Origin: a bacterium
GTDB taxonomy: Bacteria; Actinomycetota; Acidimicrobiia; Spongiisociales; Spongiisociaceae
NCBI GenBank assembly: GCA_028821575.1
Contig: JAPPFW010000004.1
Span: 1-61,867, forward strand
Reading direction: 5' to 3'
Length of the DNA stretch: 61,867 bases
Part shown: one piece after another, positions 4,390 to 61,867 of the stretch
How positions within the stretch are numbered: position 1 is the first letter of the stretch
Layout: each line of letters begins with the position of its first letter
Made by a program: the position numbers and the translations under genes
Notes under the pieces: model-generated
Databases searched by the model: none
Told to the model about the DNA's origin: nothing
The model's input: the letters and a program-made list of their open reading frames with translations, nothing else

Positions 4390-4464
4390 TGGCTGGTGGC
4401 TGGTGGCTGGTGGCTGGTGGCTGGTGGCTGGTGGCTTGTGGCTGGTGGCTGGTGGCTGGTGGCT
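4390..4464. repeat. Heptamer tandem repeat (TGGCTGG)x~10.7
   Basis: Read directly; one variant unit TGGCTTG. Confidence 0.95.
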
Positions 4465-22676: not shown

Positions 22677-22731
22677 GGTCAGTGGTCAGTGGTCAGTGGT
22701 CAGTGGTCAGTGGTCAGTGGTCAGTGGTCAG
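22677..22731. repeat. Heptamer tandem repeat (GGTCAGT)x~8
   Basis: Read directly; followed by a degenerate complementary C-rich tract. Confidence 0.95.
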
Positions 22732-55447: not shown

Positions 55448-55524
55448 GGGGCTGTAGCTCAGTTCGGCAGAGCACCTCGTTCGCAACGAGGGGGTCAGGG
55501 GTTCAAATCCCCTCAGCTCCACCA
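55448..55524 (+). tRNA. tRNA-Ala (anticodon CGC)
   Basis: GGGGCTG/CAGCTCC acceptor stem with G3:U70, anticodon arm CCTCG-TTCGCAA-CGAGG, GTTCAAATC T-loop, encoded CCA. Confidence 0.97.
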
Positions 55525-55635: not shown

Positions 55636-55708
55636 GTAGTACCAGAAGTAGTTACCGCTGTCAGAAGTAGTAACTGCTCTGTTGGATGGATACTACTTCT
55701 GGTACTAC
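55636..55708. repeat. 17-bp perfect inverted repeat plus direct repeats (putative integrase arm-type sites)
   Basis: GTAGTACCAGAAGTAGT (55636-55652) / ACTACTTCTGGTACTAC (55692-55708); CAGAAGTAGT again at 55662-55671. Confidence 0.7.
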
Positions 55709-55732
55709 CTGATTCCTGCAGGAAGGGACAGC

Positions 55733-56896
55733 ATGAGCCGAGCAGGACGGCCGCTGACAGCATCGTTTGTCCGGACAGTCAAGACGCCAGGAAGGTACGG
55801 AGACGGCCGGGGAGGCCACGGACTCAGCTTGCTAGTAAAGGCCACGAAGAACGGTCGCGTCGGGAAGTACTGGTCACAGCGGATAGTCATCGACGGACGT
55901 CCTACGTCTGTTGGGCTCGGAAGTTATCCACGGATCAGCCTGGCAGCGGCTAGGCAGGCGGCTCTTCAGAACCGGCAGGAGCTCGACGCAGGGCAGGATC
56001 CGCGCCGCAGCCGGATTCCAACCTTCGAGGAGGCGACCGACAATGTGATCGCCCTTCATCGTGACAGCTGGAAGCGCGGATCGAGCACGGAAGTCGCGTG
56101 GCGGAACAGCTTCACCACCTATGTCTATCCGACACTCGGCTCGACGCGAATAGACCGTATCGCCACAGCAGATGTCATGGACAGCCTCGTTCCGATATGG
56201 CGCGAGAAGCCCACACAGGCTGAGCTATTGAAGCGGAGGATCGGCCAAGTCATGCGCTGGGCAATTGCGCAGGGGTACCGAACTGACAACCCCGCGGGCG
56301 AAGCCCTGGACGCCGCACTGCCCAAGAACAGCAAGCGAACCACCCACCACAAGGCGCTTCATCATACCGAGGTCTCGGCAGCGCTCGCCAAGATCCGTAC
56401 GTCTCGTGCCGCCGTCTCGACCCGCCTAGCAATTGAGTTCCTGACGTACACAGCAACCCGGACAGGCGAAATTCGGGCCGCTAGATGGTCCGAGATCGAC
56501 CTAGCCGACCAGGTCTGGACAATCCCAGCTGAGCGGATGAAGGCCCGCCGCCAGCACCGAGTACCCCTAGCAGACGCAGCGATTCAGGTGCTCGATCAAT
56601 CCCTGCGACACTTCGGTTCCGACGGCTTGCTATTTCCCGGAAGGGACGGCCGACCGCTCGGGCATGCCAGCATCGGGACTCTGTTCCGGAGACTTAACAT
56701 CGGAGGGACACCACACGGGATGCGGAGCTCATTCCGGGATTGGTGCTCAGAGTCAGGCGTACCGCGCGAGATAGCCGAGCGAGCGTTGGCTCACGTCGTC
56801 AAGGGAGCTACGGAGTCAGCCTATGCACGGTCTGACCTGCTTGAACACCGCCGTGAGCTAATGCAGCGATGGGCGGACTACATCACCAACCCGTAG
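55733..56896 (+). CDS. Tyrosine recombinase/integrase, P4-like with N-terminal arm-binding domain
   Basis: GRYGDGRGGHGLSL, GLGSYPRISLAAAR, TATRTGE (R), MKARRQHRVPL (K), HGMRSSFRDW (HxxR), LAH, AY. Confidence 0.95.
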   Translation: MSRAGRPLTASFVRTVKTPGRYGDGRGGHGLSLLVKATKNGRVGKYWSQRIVIDGRPTSVGLGSYPRISLAAARQAALQNRQELDAGQDPRRSRIPTFEEATDNVIALHRDSWKRGSSTEVAWRNSFTTYVYPTLGSTRIDRIATADVMDSLVPIWREKPTQAELLKRRIGQVMRWAIAQGYRTDNPAGEALDAALPKNSKRTTHHKALHHTEVSAALAKIRTSRAAVSTRLAIEFLTYTATRTGEIRAARWSEIDLADQVWTIPAERMKARRQHRVPLADAAIQVLDQSLRHFGSDGLLFPGRDGRPLGHASIGTLFRRLNIGGTPHGMRSSFRDWCSESGVPREIAERALAHVVKGATESAYARSDLLEHRRELMQRWADYITNP

Positions 56897-57445: not shown

Positions 57446-57712
57446 TTATCTTGATCGGGGAGGGCTCGGGGCCGGTGTGGTGATGGTGGTTTGGTCGTGG
57501 GTTTGTAGGCGGGATTGGACGGCTTGTTCGCTGATGTTGAGCCATTTGGCCATGCGGTACATGCTGATCCCAGCGGCGCGTCCGGCGGCTAGTTGGGTGG
57601 TGACCGCGGCGGAGGCTTCGGCGCGGGTCTGTTCGATGGCCTGGTAGGTGTCCCATGCCTGGCGGAGGCGGTTGTGGATGTCGTTGGGGTCTGGGGGTTG
57701 TTGGGTGCTCAC
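57446..57712 (-). CDS. Small HTH DNA-binding protein (probable repressor; GTG start inferred)
   Basis: GRAAGISMYRMAKWLNISEQAVQSRL helix-turn-helix pattern. Confidence 0.65.
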   Translation of the reverse strand: MSTQQPPDPNDIHNRLRQAWDTYQAIEQTRAEASAAVTTQLAAGRAAGISMYRMAKWLNISEQAVQSRLQTHDQTTITTPAPSPPRSR

Positions 57713-57770
57713 GCGGGCCGTCGTGGTGGGATGTGTTGGGGGGATGGTAACGGGGGCCGGTGTTACATAC

Positions 57771-57833
57771 TTGACATACCCAACCAGCCTTGTATACTCA
57801 ACTGATCTTGTGTACCCAACTAACCTTGTGTAT
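57771..57833 (+). promoter_or_regulatory. Sigma70-like promoter (TTGACA-N16-TATACT) overlapped by three 18-bp direct repeats
   Basis: TTGACA 57771-57776, TATACT 57793-57798; repeats ATACCCAACCAGCCTTGT / ATACTCAACTGATCTTGT / GTACCCAACTAACCTTGT (57776-57829). Confidence 0.7.
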
Positions 57834-57853
57834 GAGGGGAGTGTGAACACTCG

Positions 57854-58453
57854 ATGGTCATAGCGACAGCATCCGCGGATCGGCCGCCGGCCGGGCGCCG
57901 CTGCGGGGATGCTTACGGGTTGGGGTATCGGACAGCCCGTGCCGCCGTGTTGGCCCACAACGGGGGCCGGTGCGTTTTCTGCGGTCTTGAGGCCGCGGTG
58001 GAGGCTCATCACAGCGCTTGGCGTTATCCGTGCGGCAGCGACACGCCTTGTTGCGGCCGCCGCAAGGTCGAGCCTTCGGATCTGGTGGGGCTGTGTGGGC
58101 TGTGTCACGAGATGGTTACGACGTTGCGCCGTTACCGCCGGGCGGGCGGCGACATCTACATGTTGGTGGCCCGGTTCAAGGAGGCAGTAGCGGAATGCGG
58201 TACAGGATCAGAGTTCGGGGACTTAGCCCCATCATCTGCCACAACGGAGCGGCCGGGTTGGACACCCGGTCGGCTGCCAACGTCGAAAAAGCGCAGATCG
58301 CGCGAAAGCGGGGATCTGACCGGACTGAAGCTGACGAGGTCCGCCTCCGAGAGCTGGAGTGTTACACCTCTCTTTACCTCGACGAGAGGGGAGCGCCTAC
58401 GCTCCCTGCGGCAGCGTTTCGGGCGAACATCGAAGCAGCCGCCCGCAAGCTGA
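57854..58453 (+). CDS. HNH endonuclease-like zinc-binding protein; C-terminal part overlaps the next gene
   Basis: GRCVFCG..AVEAHH..DLVGLCGLCHE (CxxC..HH..LCxxCH). Confidence 0.65.
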   Translation: MVIATASADRPPAGRRCGDAYGLGYRTARAAVLAHNGGRCVFCGLEAAVEAHHSAWRYPCGSDTPCCGRRKVEPSDLVGLCGLCHEMVTTLRRYRRAGGDIYMLVARFKEAVAECGTGSEFGDLAPSSATTERPGWTPGRLPTSKKRRSRESGDLTGLKLTRSASESWSVTPLFTSTRGERLRSLRQRFGRTSKQPPAS

Positions 58454-58791
58454 GGCAGGGTCCCCAGGTGCGGGAAGGGCTCATAGTCGAAGAAGTCGAA
58501 GCCTTCGACTACGACCGGTCGTTGGGTACCACCGGGCCGGAGTTGGCCCGCAACGCCCAGTTCACCGTCGGTGTGCGGGTGCGACAGTCCCGGCTGCTGC
58601 GTACACGGGCCCGGTTCGATGAGTGGGCTGCCACGTTCCGGGTGGATACAGATCCCGAGTTGGTGGACCAAGAACAGCTGCTGGTGTGGTTAGACATAGG
58701 CGGTCGCCGGCTCGGGGTGGGGGACTGGCGACCGGAGAAGTCAGGACTACACGGCCGGTTCGAGGTGGAGAGCATCGAGACGCTCTCATAG
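58195..58791 (+). CDS. Stand-alone Cas7/RAMP-superfamily protein (198 aa)
   Basis: AAGGAGG RBS; N-terminal strand RIRVRGLSPIICHNG; G.PTLPAAAFRANIEAAAR (cf. Csm3/Cmr4 G.P.IPGSSLKG.LR); C-terminal G-rich loop LGVGDWRPEKSGLHGRFEV. Confidence 0.75.
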   Translation: MRYRIRVRGLSPIICHNGAAGLDTRSAANVEKAQIARKRGSDRTEADEVRLRELECYTSLYLDERGAPTLPAAAFRANIEAAARKLRQGPQVREGLIVEEVEAFDYDRSLGTTGPELARNAQFTVGVRVRQSRLLRTRARFDEWAATFRVDTDPELVDQEQLLVWLDIGGRRLGVGDWRPEKSGLHGRFEVESIETLS

Positions 58792-58800
58792 AGACGTCAT

Positions 58801-58945
58801 GGCTAGGCATGGCTAGGCGCGGCACGGCGAGGCCGGGCTCGGCTTGGCGAGGCATGGCTTGGCATGGCTGGGCAAGGAAACCGAAGGGGCCGGGGGAACG
58901 ACCTAACCGTCATAGACGGAGTGGTAACCCTCCACCCCTCCGGGA
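58801..58945 (+). ncRNA. Putative guide-like ncRNA: 15 x GGC-NN pentamer array (58801-58875) plus a structured 3' tail
   Basis: GGCTA GGCAT GGCTA GGCGC GGCAC GGCGA GGCCG GGCTC GGCTT GGCGA GGCAT GGCTT GGCAT GGCTG GGCAA; tail has a CCGTC-ATA-GACGG hairpin inside G-rich/C-rich arms. The repeat is certain; the RNA role is inferred. Confidence 0.6.
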
Positions 58946-59117
58946 ACACGCCACCACAACCCGGATACCCAACCGCGAGCATGACGAACAGGACAAACAG
59001 ATTTGGGGGATCGGTCAGCACCCACGTGCGATACCCGGCGGGGAATTCCACCTCCAGGTACCGACCCGGCGACCGCGGCAGCGGCGCGGATAGAACACGG
59101 AGTAAGGGAGACGTAGG

Positions 59118-59185: not shown

Positions 59186-59443
59186 TCACGCCGCGGTGGG
59201 GAGAGCATCGATCCAGGCCTGGATGTCGCTGAGGCGCCATCCTCTCGCGCGGGTGCCCTCGGGACCCAGCGGTATCGAGGGCGGGAACGATCCGTCGTCG
59301 ATCCGCCGCCAGATCGTCGTTCTGCTCAGACCGGTCAGCTCGCAAACCTCCCCGATGCGGACAATACGGTCTCCCATCTGACAGGTGCATGTGTTGTCGG
59401 TGACGAGGCGGAGCCTCGGTCGACGCTGGGCTGTGGATGCCAT
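59186..59443 (-). CDS. AlpA family phage regulator / excisionase
   Basis: RIVRIGEVCELTGLSRTTIWRRIDDGSFPPSIPLG..RGWRLSDIQAWI; AAAGGAG RBS. Confidence 0.9.
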   Translation of the reverse strand: MASTAQRRPRLRLVTDNTCTCQMGDRIVRIGEVCELTGLSRTTIWRRIDDGSFPPSIPLGPEGTRARGWRLSDIQAWIDALPTAA

Positions 59444-59480
59444 CTCGGTGCTCCTTTCGGTCCTGGCTGGCCACCAACAT

Positions 59481-59531
59481 GCCATATCGGGCCACACGGG
59501 GCCATACGGGGCCATACCGGGGCCACACGGC
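59481..59531. repeat. Five ~10-bp tandem repeats GCCAYAC/TGGG upstream of alpA
   Basis: GCCATATCGG GCCACACGGG GCCATACGGG GCCATACCGGG GCCACACGGC; GGCCACAC pairs recur near 59575-59590, 61173-61192 and 61223-61241. Confidence 0.8.
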
Positions 59532-60010
59532 CCCTGGTCAGAGCGCATTTCCGAGAACGTCCACCTGCGCCGGATGTGGCCCGTGTGGCCGACTCCGTCC
59601 CTGGTCGCCCTCTCTTGGTGGGGGTCCTCGCCGAGGGAGACTACGAGCCGGCTGCGTCGCCGGGCTGTTGTCCATCTCTAGTCCCAGTACGCTCGCCAAC
59701 CGGGGCGCATGGGTGCTGCCTCCACAAGACGGTGCCAGGTGGCGACGTGCTGGCCGCCGTCCCCCGCACGCGGACGGTCACCGGGGTGACCACGGCCCAG
59801 GCTGGTCACGGAACGGCGTGAAGCAGGAAGGTCACGGGGATCGGACCGCACCGTCGGTGGCGGTATCGATGGCGGCGGGCCGCACGTTCAGCGCGTGTTG
59901 GTTTGGGCTTCGGTGCCTCGGTTCCGACGATCGACTTGCCTTGCCGGTAGTCGGAACTGTCGATCTCGGCGCCCGCAGCGACGCAACCACAGCCACCTCC
60001 CTGGCACAGA

Positions 60011-60067
60011 CAAATGGCCGTTGAGGGGGGGTGGGCACAGTGCCCACCCCCCCTCAACGGCCATTTG
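60011..60067. repeat. 57-bp perfect palindrome (28-bp arms, 1-nt centre)
   Basis: CAAATGGCCGTTGAGGGGGGGTGGGCAC-A-GTGCCCACCCCCCCTCAACGGCCATTTG. Confidence 0.95.
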
Positions 60068-61867
60068 ACCGCCAGCGGGCGCAGAACGGTCGTGTTGGGA
60101 GCGTTGTGGCGCTATCAGGAAGCGTCGGTTCTTGCTGGTGTACCGAGTCGGGGGAGTCTCGTCATCGGGTCAGACTGCCTGTGGTATCTCGAGAATCTCG
60201 GGTGGCTGATCCCTGCTTCAGCCGCCTGCGGGTGGGTCGTTGTGCGACCACTCCTGGTAGTAGCGGGCGAGTTCCTCACGGTGGAATGCCTGGGCTAGAT
60301 CGGGAACCGATGCAGCCTCGATAAAGACTGCGGGGCACTGCCAGTAGCGGTCGAATGCCTTACGGCTGTCCGGCAGGGCTAGCAGCTCTTCCCGGCGTGC
60401 GGGTGACGTGTTCTTCGGGGGTAGCCGGAGGGCGGTGGTGGCGCTTCGCCTAGTTTCTTCGGCTGCTCGGCCTTGTACTCCGCCTCCCCACTTGGCATTG
60501 GGGTTGCCTTCCTTTCGGGTCGGAGTCCCCCGCCGGCCTGGCGCTGCGCCCGGTCGTCGCGGTGGTTTCGTTACCTCACGTTCTGCTGCTTGGTAGGTAG
60601 GGCGACCTGGCGGCAGGATTCGTCCTTGTCTGCTTGGCGTCGATGCATACCCGTTCGAGGTCGTGGAGCCGTCCGCGTTGTCGTACTCGTCGGCGGCCAG
60701 AGCGGGTCACGGCCCTTATTGGCGAGATCCCGCATCCAATCCTTGACACCCATCTCCGACCGTTGCCAGCGTCATCGCCCCGGCGGGGATGTACACGAAC
60801 TGTTGTTTCGTTAGATCGGCCCGGGCCTGATGGTCGACGCCGTCCTGGTGGCTAGACAACTAGGGTTGTCGCCGTGGTCGGTCATGATCGTCCCGTCGGT
60901 AACCATCTCCTGAACCTCGGCCGCCAAGCCGAGCAGCCGAGCGCTGCCTGGAGGGCAGTCCCCTTCGACCGCTGCAGCCGCCGTGCGACCAGCGCGTTGT
61001 GGTGGGCGGATGCATGGTCACCACCGTCGGCGTAGTTGAAAACAGCGCCCAGAACCCCCTCAGACGCGTAATACCCGGCGAGGGCGACACCGATTTTCGC
61101 AGTACTCAAACCCATCAGAAGCTGCATCACGCCAAGGGCGGCCACACGAACGCTCTCCGCAAGGCGCGAGGCGGCCACACCGGGGCCACACCAACCCCGC
61201 GAAACCCCAGGTAGTCCTACCAGTGTGGCCCCCGTGTGGCCGCATAGCGCGAAATCCGCCAGATCGGTCTCCCCACAGCCCGTCAGAGCGACCTGTTCGG
61301 GATACTAGGGCAGCGGAGGTGCCGCCGGGACCCCTGAGCAATGCCCAGGAAAAGCCGCCGCCGGTCGGTTACGAATGCCCAAGCACTTGCCCCGAGACGC
61401 GACCACGACGCGCAGAGCCGCCTGAAGAAAGCCGAAACCGAGTCGAAACGCCGATATTGACCGACCGAAGCAGCCGAAGCGAGCTACGGGGCCGTGATAG
61501 CGACGGAACTACGAGTTTGGAGGACCCCTGAATACATCGGTGAAGTGATCGACCGCACCCCGCTGGCAGTCCGCAAAACGTGGCTCCCACCAGTAGCCGA
61601 ACTCCCGCCGACAACCCGAGTTACAAAGGGGGTTTCCTAACGGCAAAGGGGGCTTTGGCATTTTAACGCAAACGTGTACGGCATCTTCTATCAGACTCTG
61701 TCTTGGTTGCTTGCTCTCACGGTTTGGTCCCATCTGCTCTTCTGTCTCTACTCTTGGGATTCGTCTGCTGCTCTGTTGATGATCGTTGAAACTCCCCAGT
61801 CTTGATCGTTGGAATTCCCCTTTACCTTGTTAGGTAGCTCTGATGTGTGATTATCGGGGCGGTTGCT

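What the first reader, a model, noticed from the sequence alone, without database searches (positions are those of the whole stretch)
58195..58945. Solo Cas7/RAMP-like gene plus GGC-NN pentamer array on a mobile island: candidate minimal RNA-guided system with a non-contiguous guide
Seen: a 198-aa ORF with RAMP hallmarks (first strand plus SP motif, a G.P.LP...R helix, terminal G-rich loop GVGDWR..GLHGRFEV). It is followed 9 bp after its stop by 15 perfect GGC-NN units and a hairpin tail. No cas1, cas3, cas5, cas6, cas10 or repeat-spacer CRISPR is present in the window. Known: Cas7-family proteins polymerise along an RNA with a fixed nucleotide period and present bases for target pairing. Inference: each protomer grips one invariant GGC and displays the variable NN, so the NNs together spell a gapped target. 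The island would use this ribonucleoprotein against a helper or competing phage, or to repress a promoter. From memory this architecture matches recently reported viral RAMP + GGY/NN-repeat (VIPR-type) systems; I cannot verify that here, so treat it as a new instance or relative of such a system.
Basis: partly seen in the sequence, partly recalled or inferred. Interest (0 to 1): 0.95.

Follow-up and report, generated by a model that had tools for sequence, protein, structure and literature searches.

The report
VIPR RNA-guided system with HNH nuclease
This is a real copy of the recently described VIPR system, in which a small Cas7-like protein lines up on a GGC-NN repeat RNA to read a gapped DNA target; it sits on a mobile island beside a nuclease gene that overlaps it, so it is a new member of a known kind, not a new kind.

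Summary
A 198-aa ORF (58195-58791) is followed 9 nt after its stop by 15 perfect GGC-NN units (58801-58875) and a hairpin (58881-58943). The protein matches the solved SUSP1 Vipr protein directly (PDB 36pp, E 7.9e-14, full length). It keeps the residues reported to hold G1, G2 and Y3: H16, R138, D177, W178, R179. Its model (pLDDT 97) resembles Csm3/Cmr4-type Cas7 proteins.

Among 58 non-duplicate related loci, 37 carry a same-strand GGY-NN array within 1.5 kb, against 1 on the opposite strand. VIPR systems were described in preprints from April 2026, so this is a new member of a known kind.

The gene is not solo. A conserved HNH nuclease gene (57854-58453) lies directly upstream and reads about 85 codons into vipr in another frame. 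This holds in 11 of 11 loci of the clade, and synonymous sites are constrained there. A divergent HTH gene and a promoter-like site complete the module. The module lies on a tRNA-Ala/integrase/AlpA island.

No natural target was found in the host genome, its relatives, viral contigs or metagenome contigs. Expression could not be tested.

The parts
55448..55524 (+). tRNA-Ala (anticodon CGC); integration site and left end of the island
   Evidence: ARAGORN; Rfam tRNA 68.8 bits. A 38-nt copy of its 3' end, without a tRNA gene, lies on another contig of the assembly (C73:951-988). This is a candidate attR.
55682..56896 (+). Tyrosine integrase (404 aa)
   Evidence: Pfam Phage_integrase 1.1e-22, Phage_int_M 4.4e-21, Arm-DNA-bind_3 1.5e-12.
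57446..57750 (-). Small HTH DNA-binding gene, divergent from the VIPR operon. The 5' limit is approximate. The homologous part maps to about 57485-57685 by my arithmetic from ORF residues 142-208.
   Evidence: phrog_686 'HTH DNA binding protein' E 1.1e-4 on residues 142-208 of the ORF 57446-58108. tblastn finds it, divergent from the HNH gene, in L012 (59% identity, E 4e-28) and L013 (52%, E 3e-17).
57771..57798 (+). Sigma-70-like promoter (TTGACA, 16 nt, TATACT; 11 of 12), 56 nt before the HNH start
   Evidence: Consensus scan: 1 site found against 0.3 expected in shuffles. It overlaps an 18-nt tandem repeat at 57777-57832, 3.1 copies. Function is inferred.
57854..58453 (+). HNH nuclease accessory gene (vap-like), 199 aa. 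Its last 85 or so codons (58195-58453) are overprinted on vipr in another frame.
   Evidence: HNH endonuclease PHROGs, best E 1.2e-5. The profile matches the IscB HNH domain (1.4e-4) and a CasD chain at residues 280-339 (1.8e-4) in PDB. CxxC..HH..CxxCH is invariant in 11 sequences. Same position, frame and 232-298 nt overlap in 11 of 11 loci. Synonymous sites are constrained in the overlap.
58195..58791 (+). vipr: single-RRM RAMP protein, 198 aa
   Evidence: phmmer to PDB 36pp_D 'SUSP1 Vipr protein' E 7.9e-14, residues 4-193 against 5-189. phrog_4652 E 1.2e-32. AF2 pLDDT 97.3. Foldseek top hits are Csm3/Cmr4/type VII Cas7 chains. R138 is invariant and D177, W178, R179 are at least 90% conserved in 73 homologues.
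58792..58800 (+). 9-nt junction AGACGTCAT between the stop codon and the array
   Evidence: It resembles the 9-nt GGAxxxxxx spacers that separate successive arrays in related loci, such as GGACTTCAT and GGACATCGT. A role in processing is inferred.
58801..58875 (+). vrRNA guide region: 15 GGC-NN units. NN string: TA AT TA GC AC GA CG TC TT GA AT TT AT TG AA.
   Evidence: Transcription was not tested.
58876..58943 (+). Array terminator unit GGAAACCGA, then a 3' hairpin (58881-58943)
   Evidence: Fold of 58876-58950: -33 kcal/mol, z -2.33. L012 and L014 fold into a hairpin at the same place (z -4.50, -3.98); the L013 fold is no better than its shuffles (z -1.12). Sequences differ and no consensus fold was recovered from 4 sequences.
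59186..59380 (-). AlpA-family regulator or excisionase-like gene of the island
   Evidence: Pfam Phage_AlpA 1e-13 on residues 60-113 of the ORF 59186-59548.

Best explanation
The locus is a complete VIPR (Viral Interference Programmable Repeat) module carried by a small integrative island at a tRNA-Ala gene.

Proposed mechanism:
1. One promoter-like site (57771-57798) precedes, in order, an HNH nuclease accessory gene, vipr, and a single guide RNA. Co-transcription is inferred.
2. About 15 Vipr protomers polymerise along the 15 GGC-NN units, one per unit.
   - H16 and D177 read G1.
   - R138 and W178 hold G2.
   - R179 and its neighbours pocket the pyrimidine.
   - The two N bases of each unit are left exposed.
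3. The next unit is GGA. Its purine cannot fit the pyrimidine pocket, so it probably ends the filament, and the hairpin caps the 3' end.
4. By the published one-base-skip rule, the ribonucleoprotein should bind double-stranded DNA that reads TAxATxTAxGCxACxGAxCGxTCxTTxGAxATxTTxATxTGxAA (44 bp) on either strand.
5. The conserved, apparently intact HNH protein probably converts binding into cutting or nicking. It may dock through the short conserved helix in its overprinted C-terminal tail.
6. The likely purpose is interference with a phage or rival mobile element of the host. The host chromosome itself has no such site.

Shown here: homology, fold, contact residues, array, family-wide linkage of gene and array, linkage and overlap of the HNH gene, and absence of a self-target.

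Inferred: transcription, filament length, the GGA stop, HNH recruitment and cleavage, and the biological target.
For: - Direct sequence match to the solved SUSP1 Vipr.
- SUSP1 contact residues H17, R138, D177, W178, R179, K33 and R39 align with H16, R138, D177, W178, R179, K32 and R39 here. This is my count on the alignment.
- R138 is invariant and D177, W178, R179 are at least 90% conserved in 73 homologues.
- AF2 pLDDT is 97.3. The model has one RRM core, a beta-hairpin at 122-141 that carries R138, and a G-loop at 174-180. The best PDB fold matches are Cas7-family chains at E about 3e-4 and TM about 0.55.
- 15 perfect units lie within the 9-16 range reported for vrRNAs.
- 37 of 58 non-duplicate related loci have a same-strand array of at least 8 strict GGY-NN units within 1.5 kb, against 1 of 58 on the opposite strand. 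I saw no shared NN string among the clade arrays printed, and one search kept 75 sequence-distinct guides of at least 9 units.
- HNH: PHROG and PDB profile matches and an invariant CxxC..HH..CxxCH motif. It lies directly upstream in the same frame relation in 11 of 11 loci.
- No self-target: the best one-skip match in the 4.14-Mb assembly is 20 of 30, the same as for the 0- and 2-skip rules. The authors likewise report no self-targeting.
- Island context: tRNA, integrase, AlpA.
Against: - No RNA data exist for this organism in the runs offered, so transcription, processing and protein binding of the array are untested.
- No natural target was found anywhere I searched. The best hit, 26 of 30 in a 34% GC viral contig, has its skip base at codon position 2 and spans a gene junction, so it looks like chance.
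- The hairpin has only a modest z-score and no covariation support from 4 sequences. It is not the pseudoknot described for SUSP1.
- The HNH asparagine position is D, E or H in this clade, so activity is plausible but not assured.
- The HNH model is only moderately confident (mean pLDDT 60.6; core blocks 68-84).
- Nothing here shows that the HNH protein acts with Vipr rather than on its own.
Confidence: 0.8

Rival explanations
1. It is a VIPR system that only silences, by binding and blocking transcription like the characterised SUSP1 and P. fulva systems. On this reading the HNH gene is an independent island function, for example a homing or packaging nuclease. Its overlap with vipr is then compact gene packing without functional coupling.
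For: The only experimentally shown VIPR activity is transcriptional repression. HNH genes are common in phage-like elements. Six members of the same Vipr clade lack a detectable HNH gene, or lack the upstream DNA to judge it (L001, L030, L031, L033, L035, L037), so Vipr can exist without it.
Against: The HNH gene keeps the same position, strand and frame relation in 11 of 11 loci spanning 47-83% Vipr identity. Synonymous sites of vipr are more conserved where the HNH frame overlaps: 0.563 against 0.423, permutation p 0.0002; 1030 identical codons observed against 734 expected after standardising by amino acid. The discovery preprint itself lists HNH among Vap domains and links nuclease Vaps to target destruction.
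Confidence: 0.15
2. It is a decaying, non-functional remnant of a VIPR system on a degraded island.
For: Relatives do decay. L001 has a TGA at the W178 codon and a broken array. L003/L015 and L014 lack the N-terminal half of the gene. Only one guide is present, and the island's right part has no recognisable genes.
Against: The ORF is full length with all contact residues. All 15 units are perfect. The HNH motif is intact, and the promoter-like site and RBS are present. Single-guide VIPR systems are reported as a natural architecture.
Confidence: 0.04
3. The pentamer array is not a guide RNA. It would instead be a DNA-level element (a protein-binding repeat or slippage-prone microsatellite) that happens to lie next to an orphan Cas7-like gene.
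For: The array varies in length by multiples of the unit in one related contig: two 10-nt deletions in run X5. Microsatellites behave this way too.
Against: The strand-specific linkage to vipr (37 of 58 loci against 1 of 58), the fixed GGY with free NN, and the direct homology to a protein solved in complex with such an RNA are not expected of a microsatellite.
Confidence: 0.01

Closest known systems
SUSP1 and Pseudomonas fulva prophage VIPR systems (type II; bioRxiv 10.64898/2026.04.26.720920 and 10.64898/2026.04.26.720927; I read the Results and several Methods sections of the first and part 1 of 2 of the Results of the second, no supplements)
   Same: A homologous Vipr protein (E 7.9e-14) of about 200 aa with the same GGY-contact residues. 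A guide made of GGY-NN units within the 9-16 range, on the same strand beside the gene. A mobile-element host. No CRISPR array or cas genes in the locus.
   Different: About a quarter of aligned residues are identical to SUSP1 Vipr by my eye (not computed). There is one guide, not four. A plain hairpin replaces the pseudoknot tail. The accessory gene is an HNH nuclease and not the Vaps of types II, VI and VII, which the paper calls predicted DNA-binding proteins. The carrier is an integrase/tRNA island in a 65% GC bacterium, not a phage genome.
Nuclease-bearing VIPR types (III-V) in the same preprint
   Same: The main text says types III-V carry predicted nucleases or helicases, and that single-guide systems exist. 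The legend of Fig. S21 lists an HNH domain among Vaps of types II, III and VII. Types II and VII are called DNA-binding, so HNH points to type III.
   Different: I could not see Fig. 5, Fig. S21 or the data tables, because supplements are closed, so the type assignment is an inference. Types III and V are said to be enriched in defence islands. This copy is on an integrase/AlpA island. No overlap of vap with vipr is mentioned in the text I could search.
Class 1 CRISPR backbone proteins Cas7/Csm3/Cmr4
   Same: The RRM core, G-rich loop and thumb hairpin are shared. The best PDB fold matches are Csm3, Cmr4 and type VII Cas7 chains. Both polymerise along an RNA with a fixed period.
   Different: Sequence identity in the fold alignments is 8-14%. 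There is no second RRM. The period is 5 nt with three bases sequestered, instead of 6 nt with one flipped. No cas10, cas5, cas6 or cas1 and no repeat-spacer array lie in the locus.
RNA-guided HNH nucleases: IscB, and Cascade variants with HNH fused to Cas5 (PDB 9k2z, 8yb6)
   Same: The HNH profile of this clade finds these HNH domains first in PDB (E 1.4e-4 and 1.8e-4). In both cases a small HNH domain is attached to an RNA-guided DNA binder.
   Different: Here the HNH is a separate polypeptide whose tail is encoded inside the RAMP gene. Two in-frame HNH-Vipr fusions exist in metagenome data (P0023, L041) but may be errors or pseudogenes. That the 8yb6 'CasD' chain is a Cas5-HNH fusion is my recollection; the PDB name says only CasD.

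Membership tests
VIPR system | Vipr protein homologous to characterised Vipr proteins | tested here: met
   phmmer E 7.9e-14 to PDB 36pp_D 'SUSP1 Vipr protein', residues 4-193 against 5-189. phrog_4652 E 1.2e-32. 2734 representative homologues at E <= 0.001.
VIPR system | Minimal RAMP fold: one RRM core, glycine-rich loop, thumb, no second RRM | tested here: met
   AF2 pLDDT 97.3, pTM 0.90 for 198 aa. Beta-hairpin 122-141 and loop 174-180. The best Foldseek PDB hits are Cas7-family chains, probability 1.00, TM about 0.5.
VIPR system | Residues that hold G1, G2 and Y3 (SUSP1 H17, D177, R138, W178, R179) | tested here: met
   They align with H16, D177, R138, W178 and R179 (my count; residue roles). 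R138 is invariant and D177, W178, R179 are at least 90% conserved in 73 sequences.
VIPR system | Tandem YNNGG (GGY-NN) repeats, at least 4 units and typically 9-16, beside vipr | tested here: met
   15 perfect GGC-NN units lie 9 nt after the stop, on the same strand. None occurred in 100 shuffles.
VIPR system | GGY fixed but NN variable among related loci | tested here: met
   37 of 58 related loci have same-strand arrays. No shared NN string is visible among the clade arrays. 75 sequence-distinct guides of at least 9 units were collected. The fixed positions were used to find the arrays, so only the NN variability is independent.
VIPR system | Structured, conserved 3' tail after the repeats | tested here: inconclusive
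   A hairpin is predicted here (z -2.33) and in L012 and L014 (z -4.50, -3.98); the L013 fold has z -1.12. Sequences differ and RNAalifold on 4 sequences gave no shared fold. It is not the SUSP1 pseudoknot.
VIPR system | Accessory vap gene with a DNA-related function | tested here: met
   An HNH gene lies directly upstream and is conserved in 11 of 11 loci of the clade with upstream sequence and a hit. Which numbered vap it is could not be checked.
VIPR system | Locus lacks a CRISPR array and cas genes; carried by a mobile element | tested here: met
   Rfam finds only the tRNA. There is no CRISPR-like repeat. Integrase, AlpA and tRNA-Ala are adjacent. Cas1 exists on another contig.
VIPR system | vrRNA is expressed and co-purifies with Vipr | not testable with these tools
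   No RNA run holds this stretch.
VIPR system | Natural target that fits the one-base-skip rule at >= 80% NN match, and no self-target | tested here: inconclusive
   No self-target: the best match is 20 of 30. No convincing external target was found. The one hit at 26 of 30 is probably chance. The searches were exact-seed or at most 3 mismatches, less permissive than the authors' nhmmer scan.
CRISPR-Cas type III (Csm/Cmr) | Cas7-family subunit together with Cas10, Cas5, a small subunit and a repeat-spacer array | tested here: not met
   Only fold-level likeness, at 8-14% identity. There is no CRISPR array or Rfam CRISPR repeat in the window. The neighbours are an HNH gene, an HTH gene, an integrase and AlpA.

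The most novel reading that the evidence does not exclude
In this Vipr clade the nuclease partner is partly hidden inside the effector gene. The HNH accessory gene has no stop before vipr. Its last 76-98 codons are overprinted on the first third of vipr and end in a short conserved basic helix (F/G-S-T-R-x-E-R-L-R-S).

Gene callers disallow such long overlaps, so they drop the HNH gene. Only 4 homologues of similar length exist in a database that holds 924 Vipr relatives. The clade may therefore have been taken for nuclease-free or accessory-free.

If the tail is the tether that brings the HNH domain to the Vipr filament, this would be a natural, compact, PAM-less RNA-guided DNA cutter. The overlap would also enforce co-inheritance of binder and nuclease.
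Probability: 0.4. Interest if true: 0.6.

Novelty: new member of a known kind. Interest (0 to 1): 0.4.

Why it matters

This copy does three things. It extends the family to a small tRNA-integrated island in a 65% GC bacterium from sponge-labelled metagenomes. It shows a clean single-guide architecture with a GGA stop unit. It also exposes a clade in which an HNH nuclease gene is interlocked with vipr by an overlap of about 260 nt.

If the nuclease works with the filament, the clade offers a compact (about 200 + 200 aa) programmable DNA cutter without a PAM, and an unusually clear example of overprinting.

For the scan itself, the finding is a true positive whose kind is already described.

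Tried and rejected
Target search. All of these led nowhere.
- Full 15-unit one-skip pattern: no hit in the own genome at <= 3 mismatches, in 61 relatives, in viral contigs or in metagenome contigs.
- Two 12-unit sub-patterns at <= 3 mismatches in 29 family genomes: none.
- Exhaustive scoring of the own assembly: the best match is 20 of 30 under the 1-skip rule, the same as under the 0- and 2-skip rules.
- Five 9-unit exact seeds in viral contigs gave 0, 2, 1, 0 and 13 loci.
- On rescoring, all were <= 21 of 30 except L027 at 26 of 30. Judging by the identical hit sequences printed, 10 of the 13 are copies of one repeated sequence (9 at 21 of 30, and L086 cut by its locus end at 18). I rejected L027 as a target because it is a 34% GC contig, the site spans a gene junction, and the skip base falls on codon position 2.
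- Guides of relatives against this window: top 0.78, against 0.83 for reversed controls.

Programmed frameshift idea. A -1 slip at GAAAAAG would join HNH to Vipr. I rejected it because the heptamer is not conserved; codons 31-32 are GAA AAA, GAA AAG, GAG AAG or GAG ATC in relatives.

Consensus tail structure. RNAalifold on 4 tails gave only 8 pairs at -4.3 kcal/mol.

Expression. No RNA holder was listed for this stretch.

Binding of HNH to Vipr. Complex prediction returned no verdict (scores 0.28 and 0.02, mark 0.32). This is neither for nor against.

Libraries. Pfam and NCBIfam have no model for Vipr, and PADLOC has none. Ten island ORFs had no Pfam hit, and nine of ten had no PHROG hit.

D177N link to a degenerate first G. 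It is seen in 2 of 2 N-variants (L012, L014). D-variants with degenerate arrays also exist (L019, L020), so no rule can be claimed.

Rows dropped:
- 11 duplicate loci, plus L011 and L025-L027, before the count.
- The pair with >= 85% identity.
- L034.

Papers. Supplementary tables and figures were closed, so the type assignment, and whether the overlap is already noted there, could not be checked.
Full report
**1. The observation**

The sequence is as described. The ORF 58195-58791 (+) encodes 198 aa and has an AAGGAGG about 10 nt before its ATG. Nine bases after the TAG stop, 15 uninterrupted GGC-NN units run from 58801 to 58875. The sixteenth unit begins GGA. A six-unit GGY-NN pattern matches only inside this array and never in 100 dinucleotide-preserving shuffles of the window. 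The 75 nt that follow fold into a long imperfect hairpin at 58881-58943 (-33 kcal/mol, z -2.33).

**2. What the protein is**

- Pfam, NCBIfam and PADLOC have no model for it.
- It matches phrog_4652, a family of unknown function, at E 1.2e-32.
- It matches the chain named 'SUSP1 Vipr protein' in PDB entry 36pp at E 7.9e-14 over its whole length.
- The cryo-EM preprint on that protein (10.64898/2026.04.26.720927; I read part 1 of 2 of the Results) names the contacts:
  - H17 and D177 read G1.
  - R138 and W178 hold G2.
  - R179 and its neighbours form a pocket that excludes purines at position 3.
  - K33, R39 and K82 touch DNA.
- Counting along the printed alignment, these correspond here to H16, D177, R138, W178, R179, K32, R39 and R84.
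- In an alignment of 73 homologues, R138 is invariant and D177, W178, R179 and P180 are at least 90% conserved.
- An AlphaFold2 model built on that alignment has pLDDT 97.3.
- Its best matches among solved structures are Csm3, Cmr4 and type VII Cas7 chains, at E about 3e-4, probability 1.00 and TM about 0.5.

So the RAMP reading is right, and the protein is specifically a Vipr.

**3. What is known**

VIPR systems were described in a preprint of April 2026 (10.64898/2026.04.26.720920; I read the Results and the Methods sections on discovery, typing, the targeting rule and natural targets). Its points are:

- A Vipr protein works with vrRNAs of 9-16 GGY-NN units and a structured tail.
- The NN bases pair with double-stranded DNA while one target base is skipped per unit.
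- No PAM is needed.
- The shown activity is transcriptional repression.
- There are seven types and six accessory (vap) genes. Types III-V carry predicted nucleases or helicases.
- Some systems have a single guide.

Two further preprints of October 2026 mention or extend the family (passages only). The kind is therefore known.

**4. Linkage of gene and array in relatives**

- The protein has 924 relatives at E <= 0.001 in the 90% clustered database and 2734 representatives in the 50% clustered one.
- I fetched 10 loci from genomes, 7 from viral contigs, 46 from metagenome contigs and 6 from related genomes.
- After removing 11 duplicates, 37 of 58 loci carry at least one array of >= 8 strict GGY-NN units on the gene's strand within 1.5 kb. 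One of 58 carries such an array on the opposite strand.
- Several of the 21 misses are contigs cut near the gene, or have arrays whose first G is degenerate (L012, L013, L014, L019).
- I saw no shared NN string among the arrays printed for the clade.
- Within the host's order the gene is sporadic: 4 of 301 genomes, the host included. This fits a mobile element.
- One contig of a related population lacks two 10-nt blocks inside the array, that is, whole units.

**5. The gene is not solo**

*The HNH gene.* The ORF 57854-58453 has an HNH core:

- It matches HNH PHROGs, best E 1.2e-5.
- Its profile matches the IscB HNH domain and a CasD chain in PDB at about 1.5e-4.
- CxxC..HH..CxxCH is invariant in 11 sequences.

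*The overlap.*

- The ORF has no stop before vipr and runs 259 nt into it in another frame.
- tblastn finds this gene in 12 of 59 non-duplicate loci, all in the clade with >= 47% Vipr identity.
- In 11 of the 12 it has the same frame relation and overlaps vipr by 232-298 nt. The twelfth, L041, is an in-frame HNH-Vipr fusion, as is the database protein P0023.

*Is the overlap selected?*

- Shuffling synonymous codons within vipr keeps the HNH frame open that far with p from 0.015 to 0.515 per locus. My Fisher combination of these gives about 0.006, and the loci are not fully independent.
- Where two sequences share an amino acid, they share the codon in 1264 of 2246 cases inside the overlap and 1219 of 2879 outside it. 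Column permutation gives p 0.0002.
- Standardised by amino acid, 1030 identical codons are observed against 734 expected.
- Clade members without a detectable HNH gene keep that frame open for 85, 6, 142, 0, 13 and 146 codons.
- The model of the HNH protein is moderately confident for the core and low for the tail, apart from a helix at 178-189 that coincides with the most conserved tail motif.
- Only 4 proteins of similar length match the HNH protein in the large database. My explanation, not tested, is that gene callers forbid long same-strand overlaps.

*Other parts of the module.* An HTH gene diverges from the operon (phrog_686, E 1.1e-4) and is conserved in L012 and L013. Between the two lies a strong promoter-like site inside an 18-nt tandem repeat.

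**6. Architecture of the guide in this clade**

- Arrays start 6-19 nt after the vipr stop in most clade members; in L013 and L034 the first listed array starts 32 and 70 nt after it. In L002 they lie upstream.
- Where there are several arrays, mostly 9-nt spacers beginning GGA or GGG separate them. L029, which uses GATTCAA-type spacers, is an exception.
- The last array is followed by a hairpin.
- Here there is one array, a 9-nt junction before it, GGAAACCGA after it, and then the hairpin.
- The published pocket for position 3 excludes purines. I therefore infer that the GGA unit stops polymerisation. This is not tested.

**7. The target**

- The one-skip reading gives a 44-bp site whose 30 specified bases are 70% A or T (my count), in a 65% GC host.
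- No site at or above 80% exists in the host assembly. The best is 20 of 30, equal to the other skip rules. This agrees with the authors' report of no self-targeting.
- No convincing site was found in relatives, viral contigs or metagenome contigs. The details are under Tried and rejected.
- The target is therefore unknown. An AT-rich phage or element is a guess.

**8. The island**

- tRNA-Ala (55448-55524), a tyrosine integrase (55682-56896) and an AlpA-like gene (59186-59380, minus strand) flank the module.
- The contig ends at 61867 in a dispersed repeat.
- A 38-nt copy of the tRNA's 3' end, without a tRNA, lies on contig C73 at 951-988, and C73 also begins with a dispersed repeat.
- If that copy is attR, the island is about 7.4 kb plus the unassembled repeat.
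- No virion gene was recognised in the part seen, so it resembles a satellite or integrative island more than a prophage.

**9. Verdict**

- The locus passes every sequence-level membership test for VIPR that I could run. Expression and target are untested.
- It is a new member of a known kind, closest to the nuclease-bearing types. The exact type could not be checked because figures and supplements are not available.
- The one feature that may be new is the interlocked HNH gene. I give it 0.4 that this overlap is both functional and unreported.

Noticed in passing
window 57854-58453 versus 58195-58791; also L002, L012, L013, L018, L028, L029, L032, L034, L036, L040: The HNH accessory gene never has a stop before vipr. 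It reads 76-98 codons into vipr in another frame in 11 of 11 loci, and synonymous-site conservation is raised in the overlap. Gene callers seem to drop it: only 4 homologues of similar length are in the protein database.
   Followed up: yes
P0023 (database protein, 307 aa) and L041:2-703: These are two independent single ORFs that join the HNH domain, about 24 residues of the overlap frame, and Vipr from about residue 28-31. They are either natural HNH-Vipr fusions, frameshift pseudogenes or assembly indels. Both lack Vipr's first strand, which carries H16.
   Followed up: partly
L012:2127-2196 and L014:1881-1950: The two relatives whose G-loop reads GVGNWRP (D177 to N; L012 also has H16 to D) have arrays in which the first G is free (G in 4 of 13 and 7 of 14 units), while GC at positions 2-3 is kept. 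This fits D177/H17 reading G1. However, L019 and L020 have degenerate arrays with D retained.
   Followed up: partly
L001:4001-4579: This relative (69% identity) has TGA at the codon of the conserved W178, a broken array and no HNH gene. It is a decaying copy.
   Followed up: partly
window 59479-59530 and 61164-61250: Iteron-like copies of GGCCAYACSGGG with a 10-nt period occur in two clusters 1.7 kb apart. The first cluster lies just upstream of the AlpA-like gene. They may be binding sites for an island regulator or replication protein.
   Followed up: no
window 60011-60067: A perfect 28-nt inverted repeat with a 1-nt loop forms a 57-nt palindrome in the unannotated right part of the island.
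   Followed up: no
window 61770-61867 and G000 contig C73:1-55, 951-988: The contig ends in a dispersed repeat that is found on at least 7 other contigs. C73 starts with another dispersed repeat and carries a 38-nt copy of the tRNA-Ala 3' end without a tRNA. This is a candidate attR, which would make the island about 7.4 kb plus a gap.
   Followed up: partly
G000 contig C90:44907-45746: The host assembly has a Cas1 gene (E 1.4e-88) inside an open frame of 586 aa, so a CRISPR-Cas system, perhaps with a fused Cas1, coexists with the VIPR island.
   Followed up: no
window 4390-4464 and 22677-22731: There are two heptamer tandem repeats, TGGCTGG x 10.7 and GGTCAGT x 7.9, both nearly perfect and far from the island.
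   Followed up: no
window 57777-57832: An 18-nt tandem repeat (TACCCAACTAACCTTGTG, 3.1 copies) overlaps the promoter-like site between the divergent HTH gene and the HNH-vipr operon. It is a likely operator.
   Followed up: no
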